DNA of 17,260 nucleotides, taken from NCBI GenBank assembly GCA_016748015.1, contig JAAOMT010000450.1, forward strand, positions 56,108-73,367, in the 5' to 3' direction. The position numbers were made by a program, and so were the translations under genes. The notes beneath the pieces are model-generated. The model saw only the letters and a program-made list of their open reading frames with translations. It searched no databases and had not been told where the DNA came from. This document shows, one piece after another, positions 1-17,260 of this stretch. The DNA comes from Geosiphon pyriformis uo1. Lineage: Eukaryota > Fungi > Glomeromycota. Position 1 is the first letter of the stretch, and each line of letters opens with the position of its first letter.

Positions 1-1596
1 CTATGATGATGGTTTAGATTGCTTCTTGTGCTAGCTGATAATTTTCATTTGATAACAAACCTGTTGAATTATGGAAATTTTTATAAATTTTCTGAACGTG
101 GGTCATTCGGAGCAATCATGTTCCTAACTTATTACTATTTTTGAACTCATTGCGCTTTCTTAAAGCAAATGCCGAGGTTTTTATTTAGGTAACCTTTTCA
201 CGATTGGTGAGGATTGAAAGCCATAGAAGAGGCATTGGAGGTTCAATCCGTTTAATCGTAACTTTTCCAATGAATTCTGAAATAATAGTTCATCAACTTT
301 TGAAAAATTGACATTATGAAAAGCACATATTTGAGTTACCAAGCACGAAGTTTTCATTTGATCAGTATTTTTAATTATTCCCAAATCATAAAAAATTTTT
401 ATTAACATGAGGTATCAGAGCATTTTCGCTGGATTGATTTCGTATGCATGCTTCTTCCCCGCAGAGCATGAGACGAATGGTTTTAAGAGAATTATTAGTA
501 TTTGCTAGCTGATTACTAAAATTGAAAATTCTACAAATATCATGTCGACGATAAAATTTGGAGCTGGAATGATCATTATTGAGTGATTGAACATAACAAT
601 TTACAATCAAGAAAATATCTTGTCCCTTATTGCTGAAAAAATGAAGTTATAACTGATAAAGAATTCTGGAACAGCTCAAGATCATTGGTTAATCATAAAG
701 ATGATATGAAATTGCGAGAGATAGATCAAAAGCTTGTTTCGCGGTGAGTAAGTTAACTTGCCACTTTTGGCATTGATGTTTAGAATAAATTAAAAGAAAA
801 ATATGCGTGTAAAATTTGAAAGATCGAAAAATCAGGTCAAAATGTAAGCTTTATTTTATCAATTTTAACCGTTGAAAATCAAGAAAGACGAGGCTTTAAT
901 ATCCTTTGTTTGAGATATTCTCTATTAAAAAGTTTCAAAGGGATCTGAAAGCAAAGTTCATGAAAAAACTAAAGTCTTTGTATGTCGGAAACTAAAAGAG
1001 ATTATGGTGAAGACCTATGATTTACATTTCTATAATTTCTGAATATTTTAAATTAAGCATGGATTAAAAAAATTTTAACCCACTATTCCCATTGTCCTCC
1101 CAATAAATTTTTGTGATCTTGACACTGCTTATAAACAATTTTATATATATGGGCATTCATTTACTTTAAAGTATTAGGATGGTTATTTAAATGCCTAATA
1201 TCAAACAATTTTTGTTCAATGTACATTTATCTATTAAAACAAGTTTAATTTTTGTTGCTGTTGAAATAAACTTTCAGGTTTCATTCAATCGAAAATATGA
1301 AGCAATTGAATTTTGAATTTGGACTTTGTCAAAAGTCGGGAATGTTTGACAACGATATGAGAATTTGTTTTAGTGGTCTACAACTGATATACTAGAAATG
1401 AGGGGAAGGAATTTCAAAATTTTCTGATGAAACTCAAAGTATTCGAAAAATAGAAGCTGTGTCAGATTTACTTTTAATTGAACTATGGTCTTTATCAGGA
1501 ACGCGATATTTACAATGAAAGCATCATGACATTTTTTTCTACGATAAAAATTCAACAATTAAAAAACTTGAATTGAATCAATCGGTTTCCTTTTGA
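1..1596 (+). pseudogene. Decayed multi-exon gene remnant of unknown product; the second exon is loosely reminiscent of the Cys-rich N-terminus of Glomeromycota TKL kinases
   Basis: More GC- and CpG-rich than the rest of the window. Frame 1 is open 637-743 (KNEVITDKEFWNSSRSLVNHKDDMKLREIDQKLVS) and ends at a GTGAGT donor (744). A CTTTCAG acceptor (1271-1277) matches the phase (CG|G = Arg) and continues FHSIENMKQLNFEFGLCQKSGMFDNDMRICFSGLQLIY*K*GEGISKFSDETQ...RYLQ*KHHDIFFYDK. There are many in-frame stops, and the frame in 1-636 is unresolved. Confidence 0.3.
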
Positions 1597-2779
1597 GATG
1601 ATTTCTCAAATTGACAAAAAATTAACATTATCCATTTATGCCAGATATTGACTTTCCTTAATTTTGTTTATGTCATCCATAACCTCATTAGATGTAAAAT
1701 CTAAATTTCTAGAGAATTTGAAATAACACATTGAATGCATTCTTGTGGTGCTTCATTTTAAACAAAATTTTTGTTTATGCTTTAACTAGAGCAATTAATG
1801 CTAAAGCAACTTTTCCCAAAAGAATTAGGGATAGGAAAATTTTCTCGCTATAGTTTGCATGACTATATCCCATTATTATGAGGCAGGGATATTTATTGGG
1901 GCTATGCTTGATCCAATTCCATTGAATCCTGTAGGAACCAGACAAAATGTAATTTAATAATTTCCAAGAATGGCGTAACGGAACAATCTATTTTTAGAGC
2001 TCTTGGGCCACCATTATTTGTGAATAAACTTAAATCTTATTTTCACTAACTTTAAAATTCAAAAGCAACTCATTTAAATTTATAACATAATGAAACAAAG
2101 CATTGATTGAGTTGCCATTGTAATATCCACAAGCAATTAAGAAATATAATGACAAATTGAATTTGAGTTCACACATTCAAGAAAACCATAAAAATGTTTC
2201 TATATAAATGAAAATAGCTCCATAAATTTGATCTGATTTTAGATAAACAAATATGAAAACTTAAGTGTAAACAAAATATTTCCTTTTTAAATATCTTAAT
2301 GAGAGCAATTGCCTTGATAAGAATCTTTTATTTTAGAATTTCTGATTTTTCATTCTTGAAATCATTTAGTATTGAGTCAATTAATATTGTCAGTAAATTT
2401 TACTAAAGAACAATTGTATAGAATTTGCATTATTTTTTTTTGATAGTAAAAAAAATGAGATAAATAGCTTTAACAATAATAATCATGATGATGAAATTTA
2501 AGACTCTTCTATAAAGAATTCATTATTTTTTAAGGAGGCTAAAAGGAAGCTTATATAAATTTTCTTTATTTATATAGAAATTGATATTAAGAATAGTATA
2601 TTAATTTAGGTTTTAACGATTTAAATTATTTGGAAAGATGCTGCTTGATTAAGTTTTTCTATTCAAACAGTTGGATTGATTGATTTATTGATTATTTATA
2701 AGTGATTTAAAATTTTAAATGCATTATTATTTTTTTCTAGTGCATGTATATGTTAGAAAAATCTGCCCTTTGTAAAACT

Positions 2780-2910
2780 TAGTGTTCCTTACGGTCCAGT
2801 TCGGTCCGGGTTTTAGCAAAGAACCGGACCCGAACCGGAAAACCAGTTTAGGTCTAAGAATAGATCCGGACTCGACTGGAGTAGACTCTAACCGGACCCG
2901 GAATCGGTCA
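2780..2910. repeat. TIR plus subterminal repeat cluster at the left end of the hAT element
   Basis: TAGTGTTCC followed by repeated CCGG/ACCCG/GAACCG motifs in both orientations, the usual layout of hAT transposase-binding subterminal repeats. Confidence 0.75.
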
Positions 2911-3029
2911 AAATTATAATTAAAGATTTGCTGGAAGCCCAATTAATGAAATGTACTCAATATTTTAAACATAAGACTTACGAACTATTATTAAAATCAA
3001 TTAAACTTTAACAATTTATATAAATATAT

Positions 3030-3305
3030 TTAACCATCTAGTTCTCTCCACCATGATCTTAAGCACATTGCTATTCGCACCGTCTTGCCCATCAATCGAT
3101 TTCGCTTATTGGTTATCATATCACCGCTAATGCTATAAATTTTTTAAATAAAAATATATTACCTATTAGAAGCTGTTTCACTTGATAATAATTCATTATT
3201 ATTATTATCTTCTTCCTCTTTAGATTCATTCAAGTAAATTATATTTGTTTGTTCTTGAGTTTCATTGTAAGTTTCATCAAAAGAAATTGTAGATGGTCTT
3301 GACAT
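3030..3305 (-). pseudogene. hAT transposase remnant: acidic N-terminal exon joined to the end of the C-terminal dimerisation domain (Dimer_Tnp_hAT-like)
   Basis: ATG at 3305 opens MSRPSTISFDETYNETQEQTNIIYLNESKEEEDNNNNELLSSETASN. A GT..AG segment (3162-3133) follows, then SISGDMITNKRNRLMGKTVRIAMCLRSWWRELDG* (TAA 3032-3030). This fits the hAT C-terminal pattern FS.SG..IT..RNRL...TV...MCL.SW. Confidence 0.78.
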
Positions 3306-3440
3306 TTTTTTATTATTTTAAAGCAGTATGTAAAAAATTTTATAAAATAAAATAAAAACAAACGAAAAATAACTAGTTTGAAAATGATGTAATCTATATG
3401 AAAAGCAGCCAACCAGCTTCATATTATTATTTTACAATTT

Positions 3441-3519
3441 CGGGTTCGGGTATTATCGGTTCGGGTCTCTAGAGATCCGAACCGACCCGTTAGGTCGGGT
3501 CCGGGTCTGCGGAACACTA
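3441..3519. repeat. Subterminal repeat cluster plus TIR at the right end of the hAT element
   Basis: CGGGTTCGGGT...CGGTTCGGGTC...CCGAACCGACCCG...GTCGGGTCCGGGTC, ending in GGAACACTA. Confidence 0.75.
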
Positions 3520-3529
3520 GTTATACAGA

Positions 3530-3915
3530 TAGCGTTATAATAGATATTGTAATTATCATTCTGATTTAAGTGGCTAGGTTTCATTATACATATACTAGTT
3601 AAAATTTAAAAAGGTTATAGTTGCAGCTGATTTAGATTTTAAAAAAATGTACATTGAAATAAAACAACTATGCTTTAATTATTTTAAATATGAAATAATT
3701 AATTAACAAAATACTTTATTCTAATATAGTTGATAGAAATTTTTGTTAACCGTGAATGTAAAACTTTATTATAAAAAACCAATAAAATTTATACTAGATA
3801 ATTTAATATACATTTAAATTCTTGAATATTTTAAAAAATTATAAAGTAAATAGATAGAAGCTAGTAAAGTTGATGCCAAATTATTTCTTATTTTGCAACT
3901 TTTTTTATTATTTTA
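3530..3915 (+). pseudogene. Possible transition-decayed coding fragment, unknown product
   Basis: Frame 2 reads HSDLSG*VSLYIY*LKFKKVIVAADLDFKKMYIEIKQLCFNYFKYEII...IEASKVDAKLFLILQ with several G-initial codons. The stops can be explained as single transitions. No family recognised. Confidence 0.25.
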
Positions 3916-4619
3916 ACATTTTTTTACCAAAGGAGTTTTATGTATTACTAATTAAACTGGATTATGACTACATTTATGTTTACAATTGTTAAAATTTTTA
4001 TTGATAAGTTTTTAAAGTATTTATTTGAATTTTCACATTAAGTAAAACTGCAATAAATAAATACTAAAAAAACCCAAATATGAAACCATTTAATTGGTCA
4101 TTTATACTTTTTTGAATTTTCGACTATATTCAAGATTTAATTATATATATATTACTTTTTCAATTTATAAGATTCATTTTCGTCAAAAATTACATTCATT
4201 AAAATTAAAGAAATATTCATTACTCTCTCTTTATTTTATTAGATTAAGTATATCAGTTTAAATTAAATATGACTTAGTAAGCAAATAATATTTATTTCAT
4301 TTAAATATTTATAACAATAATAATAACTTTTATAAACCAAAGTTTTTTAAGAATAAATTTAGTGTGTTAAGCTGTGACAAGTTTTAAAAAACCATTTTAT
4401 TAAATATTCTTTTATAAAAGTGATCATGCTAATCTGTGAAAATTTTAGTATGCTTTTATTTAAATCTTTTCCAATAACTTTAAGCTATAAAATTTTTTAG
4501 CTAATGAACATTTAACTATTCTGCACTTTGAAAGTCTGAATTTTATATTACTTCTCTAAAAATTGGATTTTAAAAGGCTATATAAAGGTTTCAAAATTCT
4601 GTCTTTTTACCATAGATAA

Positions 4620-4701
4620 TAAAGGAGTAAACTCTGGTATCGGGTGTTGTCGTTATTTCATGATCAGATTGTAATGATGACACTTATTCTACTCTCCTTT
4701 A
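4620..4701. other. Nested inverted repeat / ~80-nt hairpin
   Basis: Outer arms TAAAGGAG (4620-4627) and CTCCTTTA (4694-4701). Inner arms GGGTGTTGTCGTTA (4642-4655) and TAATGATGACACTT (4672-4685) pair fully if G:T is allowed. Confidence 0.6.
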
Positions 4702-4960
4702 ATATTTATATTGGGATGAAATAATAAACTATTATATATTACTTTTTAATTATGGATTAATTGCAAGCTTTGTATGAAATTTTTAGATATTAAATTTAAA
4801 GCTTGATTATTTTTTGGAAGATTTTTTTGAAAAAAGAATCTTGAAAGTTTCATTAAAATTGGATTTCAATTCATTATTTTATATTGATTTTTTGTGTAAA
4901 AATAAAGTTTCTCTCTTTTATGAATTTTTTTGATAAACATATTATTTCAACTAATATACT

Positions 4961-5118
4961 ATGAATGCTGAGAATAATTTAGATCTATAATATTACCTCG
5001 ATAATTTGACACTAACACTGATGAAACTTCATCAAATCAAATTATATTCGACTATAGATCAAATTCGGATGATAAAATTGAGGATATTTTTACAGATGGT
5101 GGAGAAATTTTTGAATGA
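4961..5118 (+). pseudogene. Short acidic coding-like fragment
   Basis: MNAENNLDL*YYLDN, a frameshift, then DTNTDETSSNQIIFDYRSNSDDKIEDIFTDGGEIFE*. No recognisable domain. Confidence 0.2.
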
Positions 5119-5340
5119 GTCATTGACCGTTGACTCAAATGGATTTGCTCAATCACCAAAATCAATGGATTAAGAGATTGGGAGTTTCCAAAATTTTTAT
5201 GTATAATATTTCCCATAAATAAAAACCCAAAAAATTTGGACTTTTTATGAAGCTTCTTTCAACCTATACAAATTCTTCAAAGAAATCAAATTTTCTCATT
5301 AAAATTTCGGAAACGGCAGCTAAAAGTAAGACATTTTTTT

Positions 5341-7800
5341 TATAAAAATAGCAACTGATTTCTCTATAATGATCTTACATTGCCTGTCAATAAAAATTTA
5401 TTGCAGAATTGATATTTATCCTTCAATGAAAATTTAAATGATTGGAAATGCTAATTTAAATAAGAAAAAAAATTAATAAATGATCTGTTATATTAAAAAT
5501 TAGAGCAATCTTTTGGTCTAAATTTTGATTAGATATAATTATAATTTTGGTTTAATAGTCTGGTTTGTAATAACTATAAGTCTGGCTTAAATTTTTATTA
5601 TTATTAACAGTAATTATGGCTTAAATTTTAGATAATAACAATAACAAAAAATATTAAAGATAAAATTAATACTTCTACTAAAATCAAAATTTACCAAAAC
5701 ACTTTTAACAAAACTGTTTTTTTATATAGTTATCTTAAAATATACAAAAAACAAACCCTATATATTAACTATTCTAAACTTATTATTTATTATTAAACTC
5801 TTTTTTTTTATATTTTCTTTTAATATAAAATTGGACAATCAAATCTTTTTTCTGTGACAAATTATCATATTTAAACATGTTTTTTTAACATATTTATTTT
5901 ATTTTATTTCATAATTATAAATTTTTAATAAATTAATTTAAAAAAATAAATAAATTTAACAGTAAAAATAATTAAATTAAGCAAAATAAAACTTTAATAA
6001 AAAAAGTTATTTAAAATTAATTACTACTATTTGCTTTTATAATATGTTTTGTTTATATTAATTCTTTTTTAAAAAAAAAATCAAAATAGTATATGACTAT
6101 ATGTCTATATTTCAAATATAAAATTAATTAATAATATAATCCTGATAAAAACTGTATTAATTTAATAAAAATTATAATTGGTATGTTTTGTTTATAGTAT
6201 ATATATAATTTTAAATACTACTCTTTTGTTTTTTATCTTTAAAGATAACTTTTTTAATATAATTAATTTCGACTGTTTGAATACTTATTGATATAAATAT
6301 TAAAAATTTAAAATCAATATTTGAATATAAAAAAAATTAATTAAATTAATAAACAATTAACAAAAATATTTCTTTATGCAAAGCACTTTTGAAATTAACT
6401 TTAAAAGTTTAAAATTTTAAAATTTTTTAGATAAAAAAAACAAGTTAATAATTTACATAAAATTAAAAATATAATATTTTTTTAACTTTTTTTTATTTTA
6501 TCCAAATATAATTTTTGAATATTTTGTTTTCTAAGTATTATTTTAATAAATAAAATTATAAATAGTATTTTTTATATTGGTAATTAATATAATTACAAAG
6601 ATTATGTTTTTATTTTCTTATATTTGAAAATAATTTTTTTTTTCAAGACAAAAAAGTTTGGATTAGTTGATTATTAACTGTTTTAAATATATAAAAATAA
6701 ATGTAATTCAATAAAAATTAATAAAAAACAAAACTTTTCTATTTATAGCATCTTTATAAATTATTTAAGATTTAAAGTTTAGAATTTCTCCTTAAACAAT
6801 AAAATTAAATAAATTCAACAATAAAAATATTTGGCTATAATTATCAAAGAACTTATTAATAATTATATTAAATTTTATTTATAATAAAATATATTTTTTT
6901 ATATGAATATAAAAAACTATTTAAGCTCTTTAATTTAGCTTTTTACAGTTTTTTAATAAAGTTATAATATATTTAAACCAGTTTAACATTAAAATTAAAA
7001 TAAAGAATATTAAGATAAATTAATACAGAGAATAATAAGAATATACATGAAAATTATATTGTAATTTAATTTATATAAAATTTGTTATATATGTAATATA
7101 AGTCCTTAAAATTTTTAACAGCTTGACTTTTTTTATTTATTAAATAGAAAAAATTGTATGTTTTTTGTAAAATTATACAATATTTAATGGATAATTATTA
7201 CAAATAGGCTACTATAATGTTTGAATATTAAGAAACATTAGAAATATAAATTAAAATAAGTATAGTATTAATTAAAACTTTATAAATGTAGATTAATCCT
7301 TTCAATACTAAATTTTTTTAAAATAAAAAATTCAAAATTTTTAAAAATGTTGGTAAATTTAATAAAAAAAGTTAATTAAAATTCAGAAAATATAAACAGT
7401 TAAAATAATTTATAACAGTAAGTATAGATTATTGTATAATGAAATGCTAACTTTTTTTTAAGTTTTACTACTAATAAACTGCTCAAATAGCTTTGTTTGT
7501 AGAGTTATGCACAGAGAATTAATAAAACTTTATGATTGTAAGGAAAAATTCTTCTAATACTTTTGTTGTTATATTAAACACTAAAATAATCTTGGTTATA
7601 ACTTCATAATAACAAAAATTTGTTAATCTATGTCTTTAACAAACAATAAAAAATTGTGTAAGTTGTAAGCACAACATTTTTCAATCATTACAGAAGGCTT
7701 CAAAAAAATGTATTTCACCAAAAAACTCAAAATCTGAAAAGATATATCTCAGTATTTAACATGCTCTAATAACTACAATTACATAAAAATAAGAAAATAA
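5341..7800 (+). pseudogene. Ghost ORF A (~820 codons, 5' end uncertain); ancestral protein probably acidic, unknown family
   Basis: Frame 1 reads as continuous protein with no frameshift needed, e.g. YLSFNENLNDWKC*FK*EKKLINDLLY*KLEQSFGLNFD...CRVMHRELIKLYDCKEKFF*YFCCYIKH*NNLGYNFIITKIC*SMSL...FSIITEGFKKMYFTKKLKI*KDISQYLTCSNNYNYIKIRK*. Stops are mostly TAA in plausible Gln/Trp positions. The K/N/I/F excess is what G>A and C>T decay of E/D/V/P would give. Read by eye only. Confidence 0.5.
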
Positions 7801-8198
7801 TGCAGATAATACAATTTTATTGTTATTAAATAAGTCATTTTGACTATAATTTATTTTCAATCTATCATAACCAAGCTGTAAATAGAAATTTATTCCATAT
7901 AATAGACTTTTTTTCTTAGCCTTTGAATTTTTTTATTTGAAAAAAATCTCTAAACTTTTGTGAGTACATGTTTGAAACTTTTCTATATAAGATAAAAAAA
8001 AACCTATTTATACCTAACAGTTTTTGTATATTTACTAACAGTCAATTTTAATATTTGAAAGATTATATAGTATTATATTTGATAAAAATTAATTTTTATT
8101 ATTGTTGCTTTATTTCTCTTATATTATTTTTTATTATCCAAATTTTTTAAAGAAAGTAAAATTTTTTTGATCTAAAAATTGAAAAAAAAACTTCTTAG
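7800..8198 (+). pseudogene. Ghost ORF B (133 codons), unknown product
   Basis: ATG 7800-7802 overlaps the TAA (7798-7800) of ORF A. It reads MQIIQFYCY*ISHFDYNLFSIYHNQAVNRNLFHIIDFFS*PLNFFI*KKSLNFCEYMFETFLYKIKKNLFIPNSFCIFTNSQF*YLKDYIVL...NFFDLKIEKKTS* with 6 internal stops. The final TAG (8196-8198) lies inside the first array unit. Confidence 0.55.
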
Positions 8199-9815
8199 CA
8201 CTTAATAAAACTTTTAGTGCTTGCTGTATTCCATACTAGTATACTTTTTACTAGAATAACTTGATGTTATTCTATCTTCATATAAGTTTTTATTCTATAG
8301 ATATCTATAGTCAATGCTTGGAAAAAAACTTCTTAACATCTAATAGGACATTTTAATACTTGCTGTGTTTTATGCTAAAGTACTTTTTAGCAAAATAACT
8401 CTATGTTATTCTACTCTTATATAAGTTTTTATTCTATAAATACTTATGACCAATGCTTAAAAAGAGACTTTTTAGCATCTAATAAGATGTTTTAATACTT
8501 GTTGTATTTTATATTAGTGTATTTTTTACCAAAACAATTCAATGTTATTCTACTATTATATAAGTTTCTATTTTATGAATATTTATGACTGATGCTTAGA
8601 AAAAAACTTCTTAGTGCCTAATAGCACTTACTGTATTTTATGCTAAAACTTTTTTTATCAAAATAATTTGATGTTATCTTATTCCATATAAGTTTCTATT
8701 TTATAGATATCTATGGCCAATACTTGAAAAAAAATTTGTTAAAATCTGACAGAATGTTTGAGTACTTGCTGTATTCTATGTTAAAGTGCTTTTTACCAGA
8801 ATAATTCCATGTTATTTTACTCTTATATAAGTTTTTATTCTATGAATATTTATGGCCAATACTTAGAAAAAAACTTCTTAGCACTTGATAGAACGTTTTA
8901 GTGTTTGCTATATTCTATGTTAGCATGTTTTTTATCAGAATAACTTAATATTATCTTATTATTATATAAGTATCTATTCTATAGATACCTATAATCAATG
9001 TTTAAAAAAAAATTTCTTAGCACTTAATAGTGTTTGTTGTATTTTATGCTAAAACACTCTTTACTAGAATAATTCAATATTATTCTACTCTTATACAAGT
9101 TTTTATTCTATAGATACCTATGATTAATATTTAAAAAAAAACTTATTAACATTTAACAAGACATTTGAGCACTTACTATGTTTTATATTAAAACACTCTT
9201 TATTAGAATAACTTCATGTTATCTTACTTTCATATAAGTTTTTATTCTATAAATACCTATAACCAATACTTGAAAAAAGACTTTTTAGTACCTAATAAGA
9301 CGTTTTAGTGCTTGCTGTATTCTATATTAACACACTTTTCATTAGAATAACTCAATATTATCTTATCTTTATTTAAGTTTCTATTTTATGAATACTTATA
9401 GCTGATGTTTAGAAAATAACTCTTTAATACTTGACAATACTTGCTGTATTTTATGCTAAGATGCTCTTTACCAAAATGACTCAATGTTATCTTACTTTTA
9501 TACAAGTTTCTATTTTATGAATACCTATGGCTAATGCTTGGAAAAAAACGTCTTAAAACTTGATAGTACTTGTTGTTTTTTATGTTAAGATGTTTTTTAT
9601 CAAAATAATTCTATATTATCCTATCTTTATACAAGTTTTTATTCTATGGATATCTATAGTTAATGTTTGGAAAAAGACTCATTAGTCTCTTATAGAATGT
9701 TTTAATGCTTGCTGTATTTTTATGCTAATACACTCAATATCAGAATAATTCAATGTTATTCTGTATCCATATAAATTTTTATATTTTGTTTATTATCTAT
9801 GACCAGTGCTCGAAA
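8181..9815. repeat. Tandem array of 12 units of 139 or 128-129 bp with higher-order (trimer) structure
   Basis: The anchor AAGTTT (G position) falls at 8286, 8425, 8564, 8692, 8831, 8970, 9099, 9238, 9377, 9506, 9635 and 9775 (A there). Spacings are 139,139,128,139,139,129,139,139,129,129,140. Short units lack the same 10-bp segment. Units differ almost only by transitions. Confidence 0.95.
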
Positions 9816-10140
9816 AGTAATTCTAATAATTTTGTTTTTCAATTTTTATTAATTATAATTAAAGCCCCACTAATTTAAAAATTTTGTGTGATTTTTAATC
9901 AATTGGAAAACCAAATATACAATACTTTTATAAAAACTGCTTTTGGAAATTGATCATATAAATCTCTTTTTTGACCACTTATAATCAATGCTTGGAAAGT
10001 AATTCTAATAATTTTGTTTGTTATTCTTTTGTTAATTACAATTTATGCTTTACTAACTTTAAAATCTTATGTAATTTTTAATCAATTAGAAAACCAAATA
10101 TACATTACTTCTATGAGAATTGTCTTTAAGAATTTACTAC
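9798..10140. repeat. Two-copy direct repeat, period 182 bp
   Basis: GTAATTCTAATAATTTTGTTT at 9817 and 9999. ATTTTTAATCAATTRGAAAACCAAATATACA occurs in both copies. Each copy starts with the TATRRYCARTGCTYGRAAA motif also found at the array junctions. Confidence 0.88.
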
Positions 10141-10312
10141 AAGTACTAAATAGAAGTTTTTATTTTTCTGATACAAACTGTTAAATTATGAGGAAGTATT
10201 AGACCCACTATTATTAAAAGTACAATTATAATAGAAACCAAAATATTGTTTGTCATATATGAGTTAAAATATGTATAGGTTTTTTTAATTAATTATTAAT
10301 TTATTTTATTAA

Positions 10313-11734
10313 CTAATTTAAACTGTTAAGTGCTTTATTAATTAATCAAGTAGCTGTAATCTATAAAAAATTTTCAATATAAATTGAATAAATACTAATA
10401 ATAATGCTAATTGATAAGTTTCTTATTGATTATTATAAAATTTCGAAAATCTTATATTTTGATGATATATCTGTTTAAACTCTTGTCAAATTGCACTTTA
10501 TTGATAGTATTTACAGATTATTAACATAATTTAAATACATTTGCAAGAATCTTACCTAAAACTCTATATAAAGATTTTTAATATTATTATCTTGTATTAG
10601 GTAGTTATTAAAAGTCTGTAAACATTCAGCTATTATAATTAAATATTAATTCAAAGTCTCTTCAATTGTATAATATAAAGCAACTAGATAATTAAATTCA
10701 AAAAAAAGCCAAAAATATTTTTTTTGGATATTAACTTAGAAATAAGTTTAAATTATTACTTTAATGCAGTCAAAACAGATTCACTCCAGCTGATTTTCAT
10801 AAATTATGTAATAATAAAGAAGTAATAGTAAGCAGAATTAAAGTAAAAAGAACTGGCCAACTTATTGGCAGATATAATCTACAATTGTAAGACTTTAGAG
10901 ATATTTGGTTGAATAGAAAAAGAAGTTTTTCTTAGAGATGGCAAAGCTAAAAATGTTAAACTTAGCAATTTTGTTAGTAAAAATAGATCTTATAATAAAC
11001 AAGACTGTAAACTCTCTTTTGGAGAAATATTTTATTGTCTGGCAGATTTTAAAATTCTTTCAAAGTGCTGTTGTTTAGGAAAACAGATTATAAGCCTGTC
11101 ATATTGCTTGGTTCAGGATATCAGGAGGTGAATTTTTTTGCCAAGAAGTATAAATTTTTTATATCAAAAATAGATAAATTTAATTTTATTTAATTCAATC
11201 ATTTTCAAGAAGTAATATTTTATTCTAGAAATTTTTATTGGCAGAATATTCTATAGTCTACTTTATGCCAAATAATAAAGTTATAATATATAATTGTTTC
11301 ACTTTGCTAATTAAAATAAAAAATATTAAATAATGTTTGGTTTTTTACAGACAGGGAAATAAAAATACATCAAAATCAATATTCAATAAGATAACTTTGA
11401 ATAAAAAAATGTTTTCTATGCAGTATTTTTTAAAATAGAGTTTTTTTTTCTAATAAGCTCGAAATACCTAATTTTGTTTTATTATTTTTATTGAAAATTA
11501 AATTTCCTAATATTCCAAAAAATGCAATTAAAAAATTTTTATAACTATTTGTTTTCTCAAAACTTCAATTTGCATTTCAAAAAATAAATTTTGTAATTCA
11601 AATTTAACTGGTAAATATTCTCAAAACTTGAAGGTTATTGAAAATATTGTTAATTAAAACAATTTATTTGCAGATTGGTTTTCTAAATCTGTTTATAAGT
11701 TTGGTCAGGTTAATGTTGCTGCTCTATATATCAT
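10313..11734 (-). pseudogene. Ghost ORF D (474 codons), acidic Trp/Gln-rich protein with a CxxC motif, unknown family
   Basis: ATG 11734-11732 overlaps the TAA of ORF C. A single frame runs to TAG 10315-10313: MIYRAATLT*PNL*TDLENQSANKLF*...EYLPVKFELQNLFFEMQIEVLRKQIV...IYTSWQKNSPPDILNQAI*QAYNLF...YENQLE*ICFDCIKVII...YFWLFFEFNYLVALYYTIEETLN*YLIIIAECLQTF. Residual G is visibly common at codon position 1. Roughly 30 internal stops, each consistent with transitions from Gln/Trp/Arg codons. The 3' end is approximate. Confidence 0.62.
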
Positions 11735-13002
11735 TAATCTTGTTCAAGATTAGGTTATGGCCCACAGGGATCTGATCTGACAAAGTGTAAAAAAAAGGGT
11801 CTAATTAATGGTGCTGGTTTTGTAATTTCTGATATTAGAGATTCGGCTTTTTTGCTTAATGATATAGCAATTCATAAGATTGGTTTTGTCAAAGAAATTA
11901 ATCTGAATTTTGTTTTGTTAAAAGCTTGTTCTTAATCTCAGATTTGTGTTGGTCTCCGGGATATGGCTGGCTTGGGTAGCTTATCACATGTAATTAAGCA
12001 TGAGTCTTCATTATTACATAATACTAAAAAATATATTATAAAATTTGAATTTTTTATTAAAAAGTTAGCATAATATTAACCAAATTTAAATTAATAACAA
12101 AAAATAATTTAAATTTTAAAAATATAATATTTAATATTTAAAATAACAAAATAATGTATTATGTTAAAATTATAAACAAAAATTATTTAATAAACATAGT
12201 AAACTTATATTATATTTCAAAAAATATTTATTTAAATAAAGTTTGTAATCTTTATTGAAAAATATGTTTTATTCAAACTGTTAGAAAAGGCATCAAGGAT
12301 TTATTACTACATTTTTTCTAGTTAAATATATAATTTATGTATTTTATATTACATAAAAAAATTTATTGTTTATTTGGAAAAAATACTTGGATTCTCAAAT
12401 TTCTACTGTAAAATATGAGAATTAATTAGATAAAAAAAGTAGTGACAAATCTTTTTGGGATTCTTTGCAAATAAATTATATTAATTTTATTTATATTAAT
12501 ATCTTATTAGTCATAGTTTATATATAATAAGAAATGTAAATTAATAAGTATTTATTAATATTTTATAAAGATCAGTTTTTAAAAATGAAAATAAACAGTT
12601 TTAAATTTAAATTTCTCTATATATTTTTTACTCTATTTGTTGAAAAGTAATTTTTTAACGATGTTGAAGATAAACATAATTTTACTTATCATTACAAAAG
12701 AATAAAATTGAACTATATTCAAATATTTTCAGCTAAAATGGGCTAATACTGAAAACTTATTTTTATGTTCTGGTTAATATAGCCAAAAATTAATAATAAT
12801 TTTATTTGAAATATTTTTATTCCAGAGAGATAGAAAAAACCAGAGAAATATTAATTAAAAGATTTAATTATTAAAAAAAATGTCAAAATTTACTAATAAT
12901 TATTTGTTTTAGAAAGATAATTAACTTGAATTTCTTAGCACCTATGCATTGTAGTTATAATTTTTCTCTACTTGTAATATTTAAAATTAGAATAAAATCC
13001 AA
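11734..13002 (-). pseudogene. Ghost ORF C (>=423 codons, 5'-truncated), unknown family
   Basis: Single frame: ...LQCIGAKKFKLIIFLKQII...EYSSILFFCNDK*NYVYLQHR*KITFQQIE*KIYREI...ILDAFSNSLNKTYFS...LCNNEDSCLITCDKLPKPAISRRPTQI*D*EQAF...AESLISEITKPAPLIRPFFLHFVRSDPCGP*PNLEQD*. It ends at TAA 11736-11734. Confidence 0.52.
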
Positions 13003-13003
13003 C

Positions 13004-13030
13004 TGTCACGATCGAAAAAGTCATAACCTC
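13004..13030 (+). mobile_element. Possible LTR 5' terminus (TGTCACG...) cutting off ghost ORF C
   Basis: TGTCACGATCG, with two CpGs in otherwise CpG-poor DNA, sits where ORF C stops reading as protein. No matching 3' ..CA end with a TSD could be established. Confidence 0.25.
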
Positions 13031-13266
13031 TATTATTTGAGACTTCCTAAATAAAAATATAAATAAAACTTGGTTCCCTTTCAATTTTTTAAAATAAGAT
13101 CTAATAAATTATGACATAAGTTTTTAAACATTGTAATTAATTAAAAATTATACAGTTATTTTGTTTTATTTCTAAGTTAATTAGAAAGCTATAATATTAT
13201 TTTATTTTTAAACTTTGCTTAGTCTGATTTAGAGAAAAGATCTAGTATATGTTAAAAAAAATAAAA

Positions 13267-13299
13267 CTCTTGATTACCTGACCAGTAAGCAATCAAAGG
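13267..13299. other. Decayed 13-bp inverted repeat (hairpin)
   Basis: CTCTTGATTACCT-gaccagt-AAGCAATCAAAGG. The arms are complementary apart from transition differences. Confidence 0.5.
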
Positions 13300-13989
13300 C
13301 ATTTTTATCAAATGTAATGGAGTTGAGAAAAGAAATTAGAATCTTTAAGGTTAACTTGATTATTTAAAAAAATTATTCTATCTTGTTAATTATTTAAGCT
13401 TTTTAAAAAGTTAGATAAATATCACAATAGAAGAAAATAAAAAATAATTAAAAACAAAATTGATAGCAATTATTTTTTTCAAGCAATTGTTTTTTCGAAA
13501 AAGTATTAATAATTTATTTGTGTTATATCAAAATCCAGTTTTTTAATTGGTTATTACAATTAGAGTTCAATATTATAAATCAATTTATAATGATAATTTA
13601 TTATAGTAACAAAATTTTAATATTTTAGAATATTATAAATTAAAATATATTAGTTATAAAAATTTTTATTACTTATAATAATATTTATTAATATTTATAT
13701 AGATTAAAATTTGTTTATAATAGTTTATATATATAATATTATTGAAAAATTAATTAAAAATAAAAGTAGAGTTATTGTAATACATACATAAATTCTCTAT
13801 ATTAATATTAATTTAATGTGTTTTTTTATTAAAAAATAAAATAAAAACAAATCAAAAAATAAATTTAATTGTATACTTTCAATATTTGGCTTACATTTAA
13901 ATATAAATATGTATAAATAATGTTTCAAAAGAATAAGGTTTTCAAAACGTGTTTGTGCATAAATAAAATTGATAAGCAAATGCTTTATA

Positions 13990-15060
13990 TTTAGTAACTT
14001 TTATTCAAAAAGCTTCTCTTAAAAGAGATTTAAAGATGAAAGTATATATATGCTAATATATTATATTTTAAAAAACCGATTTCTTCCTCAATTTTTGATT
14101 TTCATATTTTCAATAAAAGTCTTTAAATTAAAAGTTTTTTGAATATAATAAATAAAAAACTTATCATTTGTAAAAAATTCAGGTTTTGAGATTATTGAAT
14201 TTTATATCTTGTCATATCATAATATGCTAGCATCTTGTATCTTTTTTTTTTCATAAACAGATTTGTTTACTTTGCATTTGCTAATTTTTTTGAGATATAT
14301 ACTTTTCTATTACAAAATGCTTTCCATTAATCACATCTAAAATAGTTTTCTGGCAAATGATAACAAAATCATAAATATCTCTATTTTTAGTATAAGGGTC
14401 TTATTACAAATCTTGGGTGCTAGATATTCAATAACTCTATAAATTTTGGCTGACTGTAAATAATAATTTACCAAATACAACTTTTAAAGATTATTTATAA
14501 TAATTAAGAATTCCATGTTGTGCCTAATTTTTTTGACTAATTTATGTAAATAGACTGGCAGTAAGTTTGTTTAAGTAGATTAAATCAAGTGAATTAAATC
14601 AATTACTTATCTAAAAATATAAATATTTACCAACATTCGAACTTTCTATTATATGATTTGAAGTGGAAATTTATTTAAAATAATGCACTCAATTTTATTC
14701 AAGTCTTTAAATTAGATAGTATATTATTTGTTCTTTGTCATTTGTTGTCTATTGCCAAATCCTTATTTTTTTTAGTATCTAATATTAAAACTAAACTGAA
14801 AATGTAATCTTGATTAAGATATGATAATGATAAACACTAAACTTGTTTTGAAATTTTTTGAATGTTTAGAAGCTGTGTTTTAAGTAAACAGTTATGTTTC
14901 CAGATTCTGTGTTACAACAGAGAGTATGTATATTTACTATGTCTGGTGATTTTCTATTTTTTTTACATTATTCAGTAGTATATTAATTTTTTTTTGGATA
15001 TAAGATATGAATATCATGTTTTTAATGACTAATTCATTTGTGACAATTTATATTGTTTTC
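13990..15060 (-). pseudogene. Protein kinase pseudogene (Glomeromycota-type TKL kinase-like), frameshifted and internally deleted
   Basis: Motif remnants occur in the expected order: C..CN/ESGN...KTQL (ESGN at 14907-14896; cf. TSGN..ID.FI..TQL); IYRVIEYLAPKI at 14444-14409 (IYGVIxYxAPEI after reversing two G>A changes); PYTKNRDIYDFVII at 14397-14356 (cf. PYTKxxDIYxFGxI); LDVINGKHFVIE (cf. NGxRPxI); and HL*ISFKRSFLN near 14038 (cf. HPQxxYxSRLLN). HRD/DFG are not found. Confidence 0.68.
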
Positions 15061-15627
15061 TTAAAAAAGAAAAGTTAAATTAAAGTTATAATAAATCTCA
15101 CAGTTTTAAGAGAAATGTGAATTTGATTTCTATGCTGATTGTATTTAACCATTTTAGGATAACAGAGTCAAAAAAAATGAGTTATGAAAATCTGCTTAAT
15201 ATTAGATTAGTTATAAGGATCTGCATAATAATATAAAAAATTTTCAAAAAGTACCAAGATTTCAAAAAGTAACACTTTGTTTTTAATTACTACATATTAG
15301 TTAATCTAACTCTTGTATTTTTGTTTTTTTGTTTTCGTATTTTTGTGTGAAAAACAAACATTTAATTTTTGATCTTAAAATCAACAACTTAGAAACAGTA
15401 ATATATATAAAAAGGTGTTCTCTGTCTTTAAGCAAAATTTTATCCTATATGAGGTTACTCTTATTTTTATTGACAACAAATTACCAGCATCCACCAACTA
15501 ACAAACCTAATAGCTATAATTAATATGACTAACAACTTATTATTTATGATTTACGTATTCAAAAAACACTAAAAAAATTTAAAAGGTTCATTCTCATCTT
15601 TAGTTATACTGATAAAAGTAGCAGGTC

Positions 15628-15850
15628 TCAAAGATTAAAAGCCTCTAGTTGATGAAACAATTCAGGTAAAGATGTTGACATATCTTTTTTGGTTTTACGT
15701 ATTAAGTAAGAGAGGAAGACATCCTTTACCAGAAAAAACCCCAACCTTAACTGAAAAAACTCAATCAAGCATGAAGTTTCCAACTCTTTTATATTGCTAA
15801 ATATGGTGTTCTCTAACCACTGTGTATGCACTTATTCTGCTGAATGTCTG
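15628..15850 (-). pseudogene. Coding-like fragment (includes listed 67-aa ORF), unknown product
   Basis: Open frame HTQWLENTIFSNIKELETSCLIEFFQLRLG...STSLPELFHQLEAFNL without an ATG start. Same strand as, and upstream of, the kinase remnant; any link is unproven. Confidence 0.2.
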
Positions 15851-16025
15851 TTTTTATTTATAGTCTATAACATGAATTGTTATACTTCTGTATATGTATC
15901 TATTTTGCCAAATGTCTGCTTTCACTTATTGTCAATGACATAAATTGTTATTTAACCTCTGTGCTTGCCATATTCTAGCTAAATGTTTGTTTCCACTTGT
16001 GGTTATTAATGTGCATCATGAGTTA
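15820..16025. repeat. Degenerate three-copy tandem repeat, 68-71 bp
   Basis: AATGTYTG anchors at 15843, 15911 and 15982. Units share CTGTRYATG...TATTYTGC..AATGTCTG.TTTCACTT. Confidence 0.7.
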
Positions 16026-16088
16026 AACTATTTCTATCTACTATCTAGTGAAACCACAGTCAACAGAATGGACTTGGCATTGACGGAT

Positions 16089-16529
16089 AACTACTGCCCA
16101 CCAATAATTCATGAATTCAAAATTCAAATAACCACTACCCACTAATAATTTACAACTCAACATTTGAATAACCACCACTCAACAAAAATGCATGAATTCA
16201 ACATTCAAATAACCATTATCTACCAATAATTTGTGATTCAACATTTGAACATAATCACCTACCAATATTTTACAACTTAACATTCAAATAACCACTGGCC
16301 ATTAAAAATGTGCAAATTTAACATTAAAATATAATCACTACTCACCAATAATTCAACTCAATATTTGATAACCATCATCCATCAAAAATGCGTGAATTCA
16401 ACATTTGAATAACAATTACCCACCAATAATTCACAACTCAACATTTGAATAACTATCATCTACCAATAATTTGTATCTCAACATTCGAATTACCATGCTC
16501 ACCAGTAATTCACAATTCAACATTCGAAT
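16089..16529. repeat. Minisatellite, ~11 units of ~40-41 bp
   Basis: Units approximate AACCACYRCCCACCAATAATTCRYRAYTCAACATTYRAAT. A variant with AAAAATG recurs in units 3, 6 and 8. Differences are mainly transitions. Confidence 0.92.
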
Positions 16530-17260
16530 AGCCAATGAATATGAAATAAAAATTCATGAACAATTGATCATCAAATAACTAAATTAAATTTTAGGATTAG
16601 GTGGTGAAGTATTGATAATTTTTAGTCTGTTATTTATGCTTTGCAAAAATAAAGAGTGGGAGAGGGGTAGTTTAAGATTTCTTACAAGAGTGAAAAGTAG
16701 GAGGAGGTAGCCACATTTGTCAATTATCTTTTCTATATCTATCTAGTCTATAGAAAAATTGTTCACTCGTTGCCAATTTTGATGTTATTTACTGTTTATT
16801 GTTAAGCCTATTGAAATTTAATTCAGAAATTTGAAATGATCAATATAAAATATTTAAGAAACCTAATGTATAATATACTATTGTTATTAATATATGTATT
16901 TTTAAATGATAATAGTTCAGTAATAACTTTAAAAATTGCTAATATTGGCTTAAGTCCAAGCAATAATAACTTTATTTTTAAACCACTGGTTAAATATCCT
17001 TGAAACTTTTTTTATGCAATTTCAGATTTAAATATTAAAATTTAGGCAATATTGAGCATATTTAATATACTTTTTCACTGTGTATATCGAAAACCCTCTG
17101 CTCTTGCTATCGAAATGTATTAATTTGATCAACTATGAATGAAAAATTTAGCGTTTTCAAAAAAAAACAATGAGTAAAAGTACTTGCTAAAAATCATGTT
17201 CAGTCTGGTCATTCAATACATTTTTATCGTAAATATGTGAAAATCTTGATTTATTACTTG

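What the first reader, a model, noticed from the sequence alone, without database searches (positions are those of the whole stretch)
5341..13003. Hidden virus-like element: two convergent, intron-less gene pairs running towards a central repeat array
Seen: DNA that the ORF track treats as empty reads as four long single-frame proteins (A ~820, B 133, C >=423, D 474 codons) once stops are read as mutated Gln/Trp/Arg codons. A and B are on +, C and D on -, converging on the 8.2-10.1 kb repeat block. ORF B ends inside array unit 1, and the right-hand 182-bp repeats share the array junction motif, which suggests one element rather than two chance neighbours. Inference: the ancestral products were acidic, aromatic-rich proteins with a few CxxC-like motifs, and I recognise no transposase, RT, polB or capsid. 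Tight packing without introns is unlike fungal host genes. It resembles an endogenous virus or the accessory region of a large, possibly undescribed mobile element.
Basis: partly seen in the sequence, partly recalled or inferred. Interest (0 to 1): 0.85.

Follow-up and report, generated by a model that had tools for sequence, protein, structure and literature searches.

The report
Decayed multi-gene mobile element, class unknown
This AT-rich stretch belongs, at least at its right end, to a repeat family with many copies; it is likely the mutation-wrecked relic of a large mobile element whose tightly packed genes face a central repeat array, and none of its predicted proteins matches anything known.

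Summary
Partly confirmed. Shown: 11-28% GC with CpG nearly absent; a 12-unit array whose units are 76% identical but 96% identical in purine/pyrimidine code (C>T/G>A decay); two 182-bp units sharing its junction motif; ORF B ending in unit 1. One public run lays 89 variant contigs on 12600-13400, so that part is multi-copy. Between-copy differences favour frame D (14 of 23 at codon position 3, p=0.006). The same frame runs on to about 15500 (new segment E, stop deficit 13/1000), so the element is larger than reported. The LTR-like word at 13004 is not a boundary. No homologue was found. Decay-aware profiles exclude a Ty3/Gypsy pol and a canonical RNA-primed family-B polymerase. A polymerase-motif-like stretch in A is an unconfirmed lead. 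'Virus-like' is unproven. Best reading: the accessory, enzyme-less part of a large transposon-type element, methylated and hypermutated, in a probably fungal host (host recalled, not tested).

The parts
5341..7800 (+). Decayed frame A, 820 codons, 74 stops; no in-frame start found at its 5' end, may be truncated
   Evidence: best of 6 frames in the leave-one-out model but z=1.25 only; no homologue
6481..6513 (+). Stretch compatible under C>T/G>A decay with family-B DNA polymerase motif A; unconfirmed lead
   Evidence: 1 hit, 0 of 100 shuffles, pattern partly post hoc; signal vanishes when the motif is masked
6868..6888 (+). Stretch compatible with part of polB motif B, 129 codons after the motif-A-like stretch; conserved Lys absent, no motif C found
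   Evidence: 9 of 100 shuffles have one somewhere
7800..8198 (+). Decayed frame B, 133 codons; its ATG overlaps A's last stop (TAATG); ends in array unit 1
   Evidence: only 1 of A's 74 stops overlaps an ATG; frame z=0.74
8174..9803 (.). Tandem array, 12 units of 128-142 bp, transition-decayed in CpG and non-CpG contexts, not palindromic
9804..10167 (.). Two 182-bp units sharing the array's junction motif
   Evidence: (D10, D13)
10250..11575 (-). Decayed frame C, at least 423 codons; ATG one base after D's last stop; 3' end not fixed
   Evidence: z=1.1; 0 hits at E<=0.001 in 1.84 billion representatives
11577..13004 (-). Decayed frame D; between-copy differences are enriched at third positions
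13005..15494 (-). Segment E (not in the first report): same frame as D continued upstream; one long gene with D or a further gene
   Evidence: 13005-13400 multi-copy and joined to D in 3 contigs
13004..13116 (.). LTR-like terminal words (TGTCAC...TGACA); rejected as an element boundary
   Evidence: Bridged by 3 divergent contigs; no partner copy in the window

Best explanation
This is likely one decayed copy of the accessory, enzyme-less part of a large (10 kb or more) transposon-type element, in which intron-less genes on both strands point towards a central tandem array. Shown: the right arm at 12600-13400 is multi-copy, the DNA has decayed mainly by C>T/G>A, and frame D (with E) keeps a coding signature. 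Inferred: the arms were transcribed from outside inwards, with the array as the non-coding 3' zone between them. B and C would have been made by stop-start coupling behind A and D (TAATG and TGA-A-ATG junctions). The host would have silenced the element by cytosine methylation, and deamination eroded it from about 45% GC to 11-28%. Copies that are mostly 90-99% alike suggest it was still copied after much of the decay, so mobilising enzymes would have come from elsewhere (outside the window or in trans).
For: Array: 255 of 291 differences are transitions; 66 of 138 columns still show G/C in some unit against 23% GC observed; CpG o/e 0.06-0.17. Multi-copy: 89 contigs laid on 801 bp, 11/31/31/16 at 99+/95-99/90-95/<90%. 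Coding: D third-position bias, E stop deficit up to 15494, pooled codon model z=2.6. No enzyme: the Gypsy pol profile scores at most 26 bits, in the AT-richest patches and in several frames, against 253-471 for 12 of 12 decayed controls. The RNA-primed polB profile scores 14.6 with the motif masked, against 44-107 for 13 of 13 controls. Precedent for antisense accessory ORFs plus tandem arrays inside giant retrotransposons: PMC11963269 (abstract), PMC6431247 (passages).
Against: No termini found: no LTR or TIR pair between 3521-5700 and 12901-17260. A, B and C are individually weak. The array pattern found no other locus in viral, metagenome or prokaryote collections, which hold little eukaryotic DNA. 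DDE transposases, Helitron and tyrosine recombinase were tested only with short recalled motifs (low power). At 10 of 40 listed sites every contig differs from the window, so run X1 may be another individual. Methylation is inferred, not measured.
Confidence: 0.45

Rival explanations
1. Fragment of an endogenous large DNA virus (orphan viral genes), later amplified in the host genome.
For: Intron-less, tightly packed genes with a higher ancestral GC than the flanks. Such regions exist in Rhizophagus irregularis, GC 36.6% against 28%, most ORFs unannotated (PMC10640383 passages).
Against: No viral marker or hit. The known 1.5-Mb region was found in one strain as a single insertion, whereas this is a family of near-identical copies.
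Confidence: 0.2
2. Two unrelated decayed elements that abut at the array; only the minus-strand arm (C-D-E) is the multi-copy family.
For: Only the right arm was shown to be multi-copy. Outside the junction motif, the 139-bp and 182-bp units are not detectably related (29-32 against null maxima 39-48).
Against: A shared junction motif links both repeat types. B runs into unit 1. CpG loss is uniform across 5341-13003. Run X1 holds 61% of sampled words of the whole stretch.
Confidence: 0.15
3. Self-synthesising (Polinton-like or linear-plasmid-like) element in which A is a very divergent family-B DNA polymerase.
For: Motif-A-like and motif-B-like stretches in frame A, 129 codons apart, within the spacing range of real enzymes. 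Motif-A block 17.5 bits, 0 of 100 shuffles (circular, because the profile was selected on that motif). Cross-subfamily controls score at null, so a remote polB is not excluded. Mavericks are reported in R. irregularis (PMC11075540 passages).
Against: No motif C; Lys of motif B absent. Masked profile at null. Phage pPolB profile 14.9. 6 of 6 PF03175-type proteins at null. Scores of 22-26 arise by chance in AT-rich patches. 17 motifs were tried. No TIRs.
Confidence: 0.1
4. Frames A, B and C are pattern-reading in AT-rich decayed DNA; only D/E ever coded.
For: No RY periodicity; stop deficit equal to best-of-three chance; individual z about 1.
Against: Pooled cross-validated signal; both junctions put an ATG at or one base after the neighbour's stop.
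Confidence: 0.1

Closest known systems
Retand/Tat/Ogre Ty3/Gypsy retrotransposons, pol-3'LTR accessory region (PMC11963269, abstract; PMC6431247, passages)
   Same: Kilobases of extra ORFs of unknown function, some antisense, together with tandem-repeat arrays inside a multi-copy mobile element
   Different: Described in plants. Here no pol in the window, no LTR pair, no Pfam domain such as TRP28, and about 10 kb of ORFs on both strands against 2.9-6.6 kb
Giant endogenous viral region of Rhizophagus irregularis (PMC10640383, passages)
   Same: Mostly intron-poor orphan genes, GC above host level
   Different: That region carries five Nucleocytoviricota markers and is a single 1.5-Mb insertion; here no marker, and a dispersed-looking multi-copy family
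Polintons/Mavericks (PMC6431247, passages)
   Same: Large multi-gene DNA elements; convergent intron-less layout is recalled, not from a call
   Different: pPolB, retroviral-like integrase, capsid and TIRs not detected (capsid untested beyond Pfam/PHROGs)
Unclassified, methylated high-copy repeats and orphan genes of arbuscular mycorrhizal fungi (PMC8647823, PMC11075540, passages)
   Same: Repeats without recognisable domains; CG methylation of TEs
   Different: Host not established here. Decay is also about 50% at non-CpG cytosines, while RIP is reported as not detected in Gigaspora margarita

Membership tests
Ty3/Gypsy LTR retrotransposon | pol with RT, RNase H and integrase | tested here: not met
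   Decay-aware 41-sequence profile over all six frames of the window: at most 26 bits against 253-471 for 12 of 12 controls; pol could lie outside the window
Ty3/Gypsy LTR retrotransposon | Paired LTRs with PBS/PPT and TSD | tested here: not met
   No direct-repeat pair; the 13004 word is bridged by other copies; only the window was searched
Polinton/Maverick | Protein-primed family-B polymerase | tested here: inconclusive
   Motif A/B-like stretches but no motif C; profiles at null, cross-subfamily controls also at null
Polinton/Maverick | Long terminal inverted repeats | tested here: not met
   (35.5 against null 39.4); element ends unknown
Polinton/Maverick | Retroviral-like integrase, packaging ATPase, jelly-roll capsid | tested here: inconclusive
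   No Pfam/PHROG hit on X-read frames; short motifs near chance; low power on decayed DNA
Nucleocytoviricota endogenous element | Canonical RNA-primed polB | tested here: not met
   14.6 masked against 44-107 for 13 of 13 held-out controls
Nucleocytoviricota endogenous element | Other markers (RNAP, capsid, A32, VLTF3) or viral best hits | tested here: inconclusive
   No hits; no decay-aware test of these
DDE DNA transposon / Helitron / Crypton | Transposase, RepHel or tyrosine recombinase | tested here: inconclusive
   Only short recalled motifs, counts near shuffle levels
Baculovirus/nudivirus-type hr origin array | Palindromic core in each unit (recalled feature) | tested here: not met
   0 of 14 units above shuffles
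Classical ascomycete RIP target | CpA depletion with TpA excess | tested here: not met
   CpA o/e 0.77-1.07, TpA 0.87-0.99, CpG 0.06-0.17

The most novel reading that the evidence does not exclude
The relic of an undescribed class of virus-like integrating element of early-diverging fungi: five or more orphan genes in two convergent, stop-start-coupled cassettes around a minisatellite, with gene A a highly divergent family-B polymerase, hidden from annotation and homology search by all-context cytosine hypermutation in a lineage thought to lack RIP.
Probability: 0.12. Interest if true: 0.85.

Novelty: new variant of a known kind. Interest (0 to 1): 0.45.

Why it matters
About two-thirds of TEs in the model arbuscular mycorrhizal fungus are unclassified (PMC11075540, abstract passage). 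If this window is from such a host, it shows that some of that AT-rich 'empty' repeat DNA is wrecked multi-gene elements with orphan proteins, and that codon-position bias between copies can recover their frames. The decay at non-CpG cytosines also bears on whether these fungi have a RIP-like defence. The copy itself is dead, and no function could be assigned.

Tried and rejected
No own genome held. No hits: Rfam, tRNA (94), phage blastn, Pfam on frames and flanks, PHROGs, PDB (22; one search gave 3 chance hits at E>=0.25), 5.8-billion word search on three stretches, phmmer of C on 1.84 billion representatives, viral-contig loci, tblastn on phages and plasmids. ESM Atlas on two stop-free pieces: best 0.77, and no usable hit. 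DNA patterns for the array, the 13004 word and D: 0 in viral, metagenome and prokaryote genomes. These blanks are weak, because the queries are decayed and carry X, and the collections hold little eukaryotic DNA. No RNA holder listed. Runs X2 and X3 laid 1 and 0 contigs (no proof of absence). LTR reading of 13004-13116 rejected; its match to 11741-11854 is chance (4 of 150). First D frame dropped. My guess of a hAT transposase at 13900-15700 (+) found no Pfam support and was replaced by the minus-strand frame E. RY periodicity and a generic decay model were not significant. Structure prediction was not run: single decayed sequences with X would give meaningless models. Earlier-findings look-ups: 0 results in 7 of 7 answered calls. 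Paper searches listed no description of this element; they cover open-access text only, and no supplements or TE libraries were seen, where the family may already be listed as 'Unknown'.
Full report
Sequence state. The window holds no ORF of 80 aa or more in 5341-13003. GC there is 11-28% and CpG o/e 0.06-0.17, without the CpA loss and TpA gain of classical RIP. The central array has 12 units of 128-142 bp at 8174-9803, followed by two 182-bp units. Of 291 unit differences, 255 are transitions. Units are 76% identical but 96% identical in RY code, and 66 of 138 columns still show G or C in some unit, which puts the ancestor at up to about 48% GC. About half of non-CpG C columns have decayed as well. 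The 182-bp units share the junction motif but nothing else detectable, and no unit is palindromic (0 of 14). Hypermutation is therefore shown; methylation as its cause is inferred.

Are the frames real? Each proposed frame has the fewest stops on its strand, but for A-D this equals what picking the emptiest frame gives (566 of 1000). A leave-one-out codon model gave a pooled z of 2.6 (1 of 300; rank 19 of 729), with each segment weak. The strongest evidence came from other copies. Run X1 laid 89 contigs on 12600-13400, most 90-99% alike. Of 78 variant sites 40 were listed, 23 of them in D. Fourteen of the 23 fall on D's third codon position (p=0.006) and 13 are synonymous against 7.2 expected (p=0.01); the D frame had been fixed beforehand. 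Caveats: about 9 of the 23 come from one contig; one + strand frame shares the third-position register (synonymous p=0.047); the 17 sites right of 13004 show no bias (7 of 17). Among the 40 sites, three touch in-frame stops without opening them, two read sense where the window has a stop, and one does the reverse, so most stops appear to be shared among copies. Both gene junctions look coupled: A's last stop overlaps B's ATG (the only 1 of 74 that overlaps an ATG) and C's ATG follows D's stop after one base. UAAUG stop-restart is known from fungal RNA viruses (search listing only; mechanism recalled), but these junctions were chosen after the fact.

Extent. The word at 13004 looks like an LTR start, but three divergent contigs bridge it, and coverage by variant contigs continues to 13400. 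The D frame continues upstream as segment E, with 53 stops against 71 and 79 (13 of 1000 scrambles), lowest or tied-lowest in five successive 500-bp bins up to 15494 and lost after that. The element is thus probably at least 10 kb. No LTR or TIR pair joins the left and right flanks. Whether the left arm travels with the right arm could not be tested.

What the proteins are. All sequence searches were blank. Because decay blinds such searches, I scored profiles through a C>T/G>A decay model. A Ty3/Gypsy pol profile (41 sequences) reached at most 26 bits, in the AT-richest patches and in several frames, against 253-471 for 12 of 12 decayed controls: no such pol is in the window. A scan with 17 recalled motifs found a polB motif-A-like stretch in A at 6481 and a partial motif B 129 codons on, but no motif C. 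With the selection motif masked, A scored 14.6 against 44-107 for 13 of 13 held-out RNA-primed polBs, 14.9 unmasked on a phage pPolB profile, and at null against 6 of 6 PF03175-type proteins. Cross-subfamily controls were also at null, so a remote polB remains possible (about 0.1). DDE, Helitron and recombinase enzymes were tested only weakly.

Mechanism and comparison. The simplest account is the accessory, enzyme-less part of a large transposon-type element: convergent transcription towards the array and stop-start coupling (both inferred), silencing and deamination (decay shown, cause inferred), and continued copying with enzymes supplied from outside this stretch (inferred from near-identical, stop-sharing copies). 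It works like the pol-3'LTR region of plant Retand elements, which carry antisense ORFs and tandem arrays (PMC11963269, abstract), but fails membership tests for Gypsy within the window. An endogenous large-virus origin has precedent in Rhizophagus irregularis (PMC10640383, passages) but no marker here. My impression that the host is a Glomeromycota fungus rests on recalled look of the flanks, not on a call. For context, TEs there are CG-methylated, 24% of the genome is uncharacterised repeats, and RIP is reported absent in Gigaspora margarita (PMC8647823, passages); Mavericks and Cryptons occur (PMC11075540 passages; PMC13465315 abstract). PMC13443276 passages added nothing relevant. No supplements were read.

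Verdict. A real, multi-copy, hypermutated multi-gene element, larger than reported, of unknown class. Coding history is good for D/E and weak for A-C; viral nature is unproven. Interest 0.45; 0.85 if it proves to be a new virus-like class (probability about 0.12).

Noticed in passing
window 2780-3519: CpG-rich MITE-like insertion with 9-bp terminal inverted repeats and a degenerate 8-bp flank repeat (5 of 8); hAT assignment is recalled
   Followed up: partly
window 16097-16534: Second tandem array, 40-bp unit, about 11 copies, strongly C-skewed; may or may not belong to the element's right end
   Followed up: no
window 1-2100: Less decayed, gene-like fragments on + with CpG retained; no Pfam hit
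   Followed up: partly
window 15388-15423 (+): Stretch compatible under decay with a recalled hAT dimerisation motif; 2 hits against 0.8 in shuffles, probably chance
   Followed up: partly
window 8174-9803: About half of non-CpG cytosine columns have decayed too (0.50-0.54 against 0.59-0.76 in CpG-able columns), without the CpA/TpA signature of classical RIP
   Followed up: partly
window 12600-13400: Two runs of the same sample code (X2, X3) hold almost none of this multi-copy family while X1 holds 89 contigs; library type unknown
   Followed up: no
window 6992-7040: Local 25-bp tandem duplication inside frame A, near where a polB motif C would be expected
   Followed up: no
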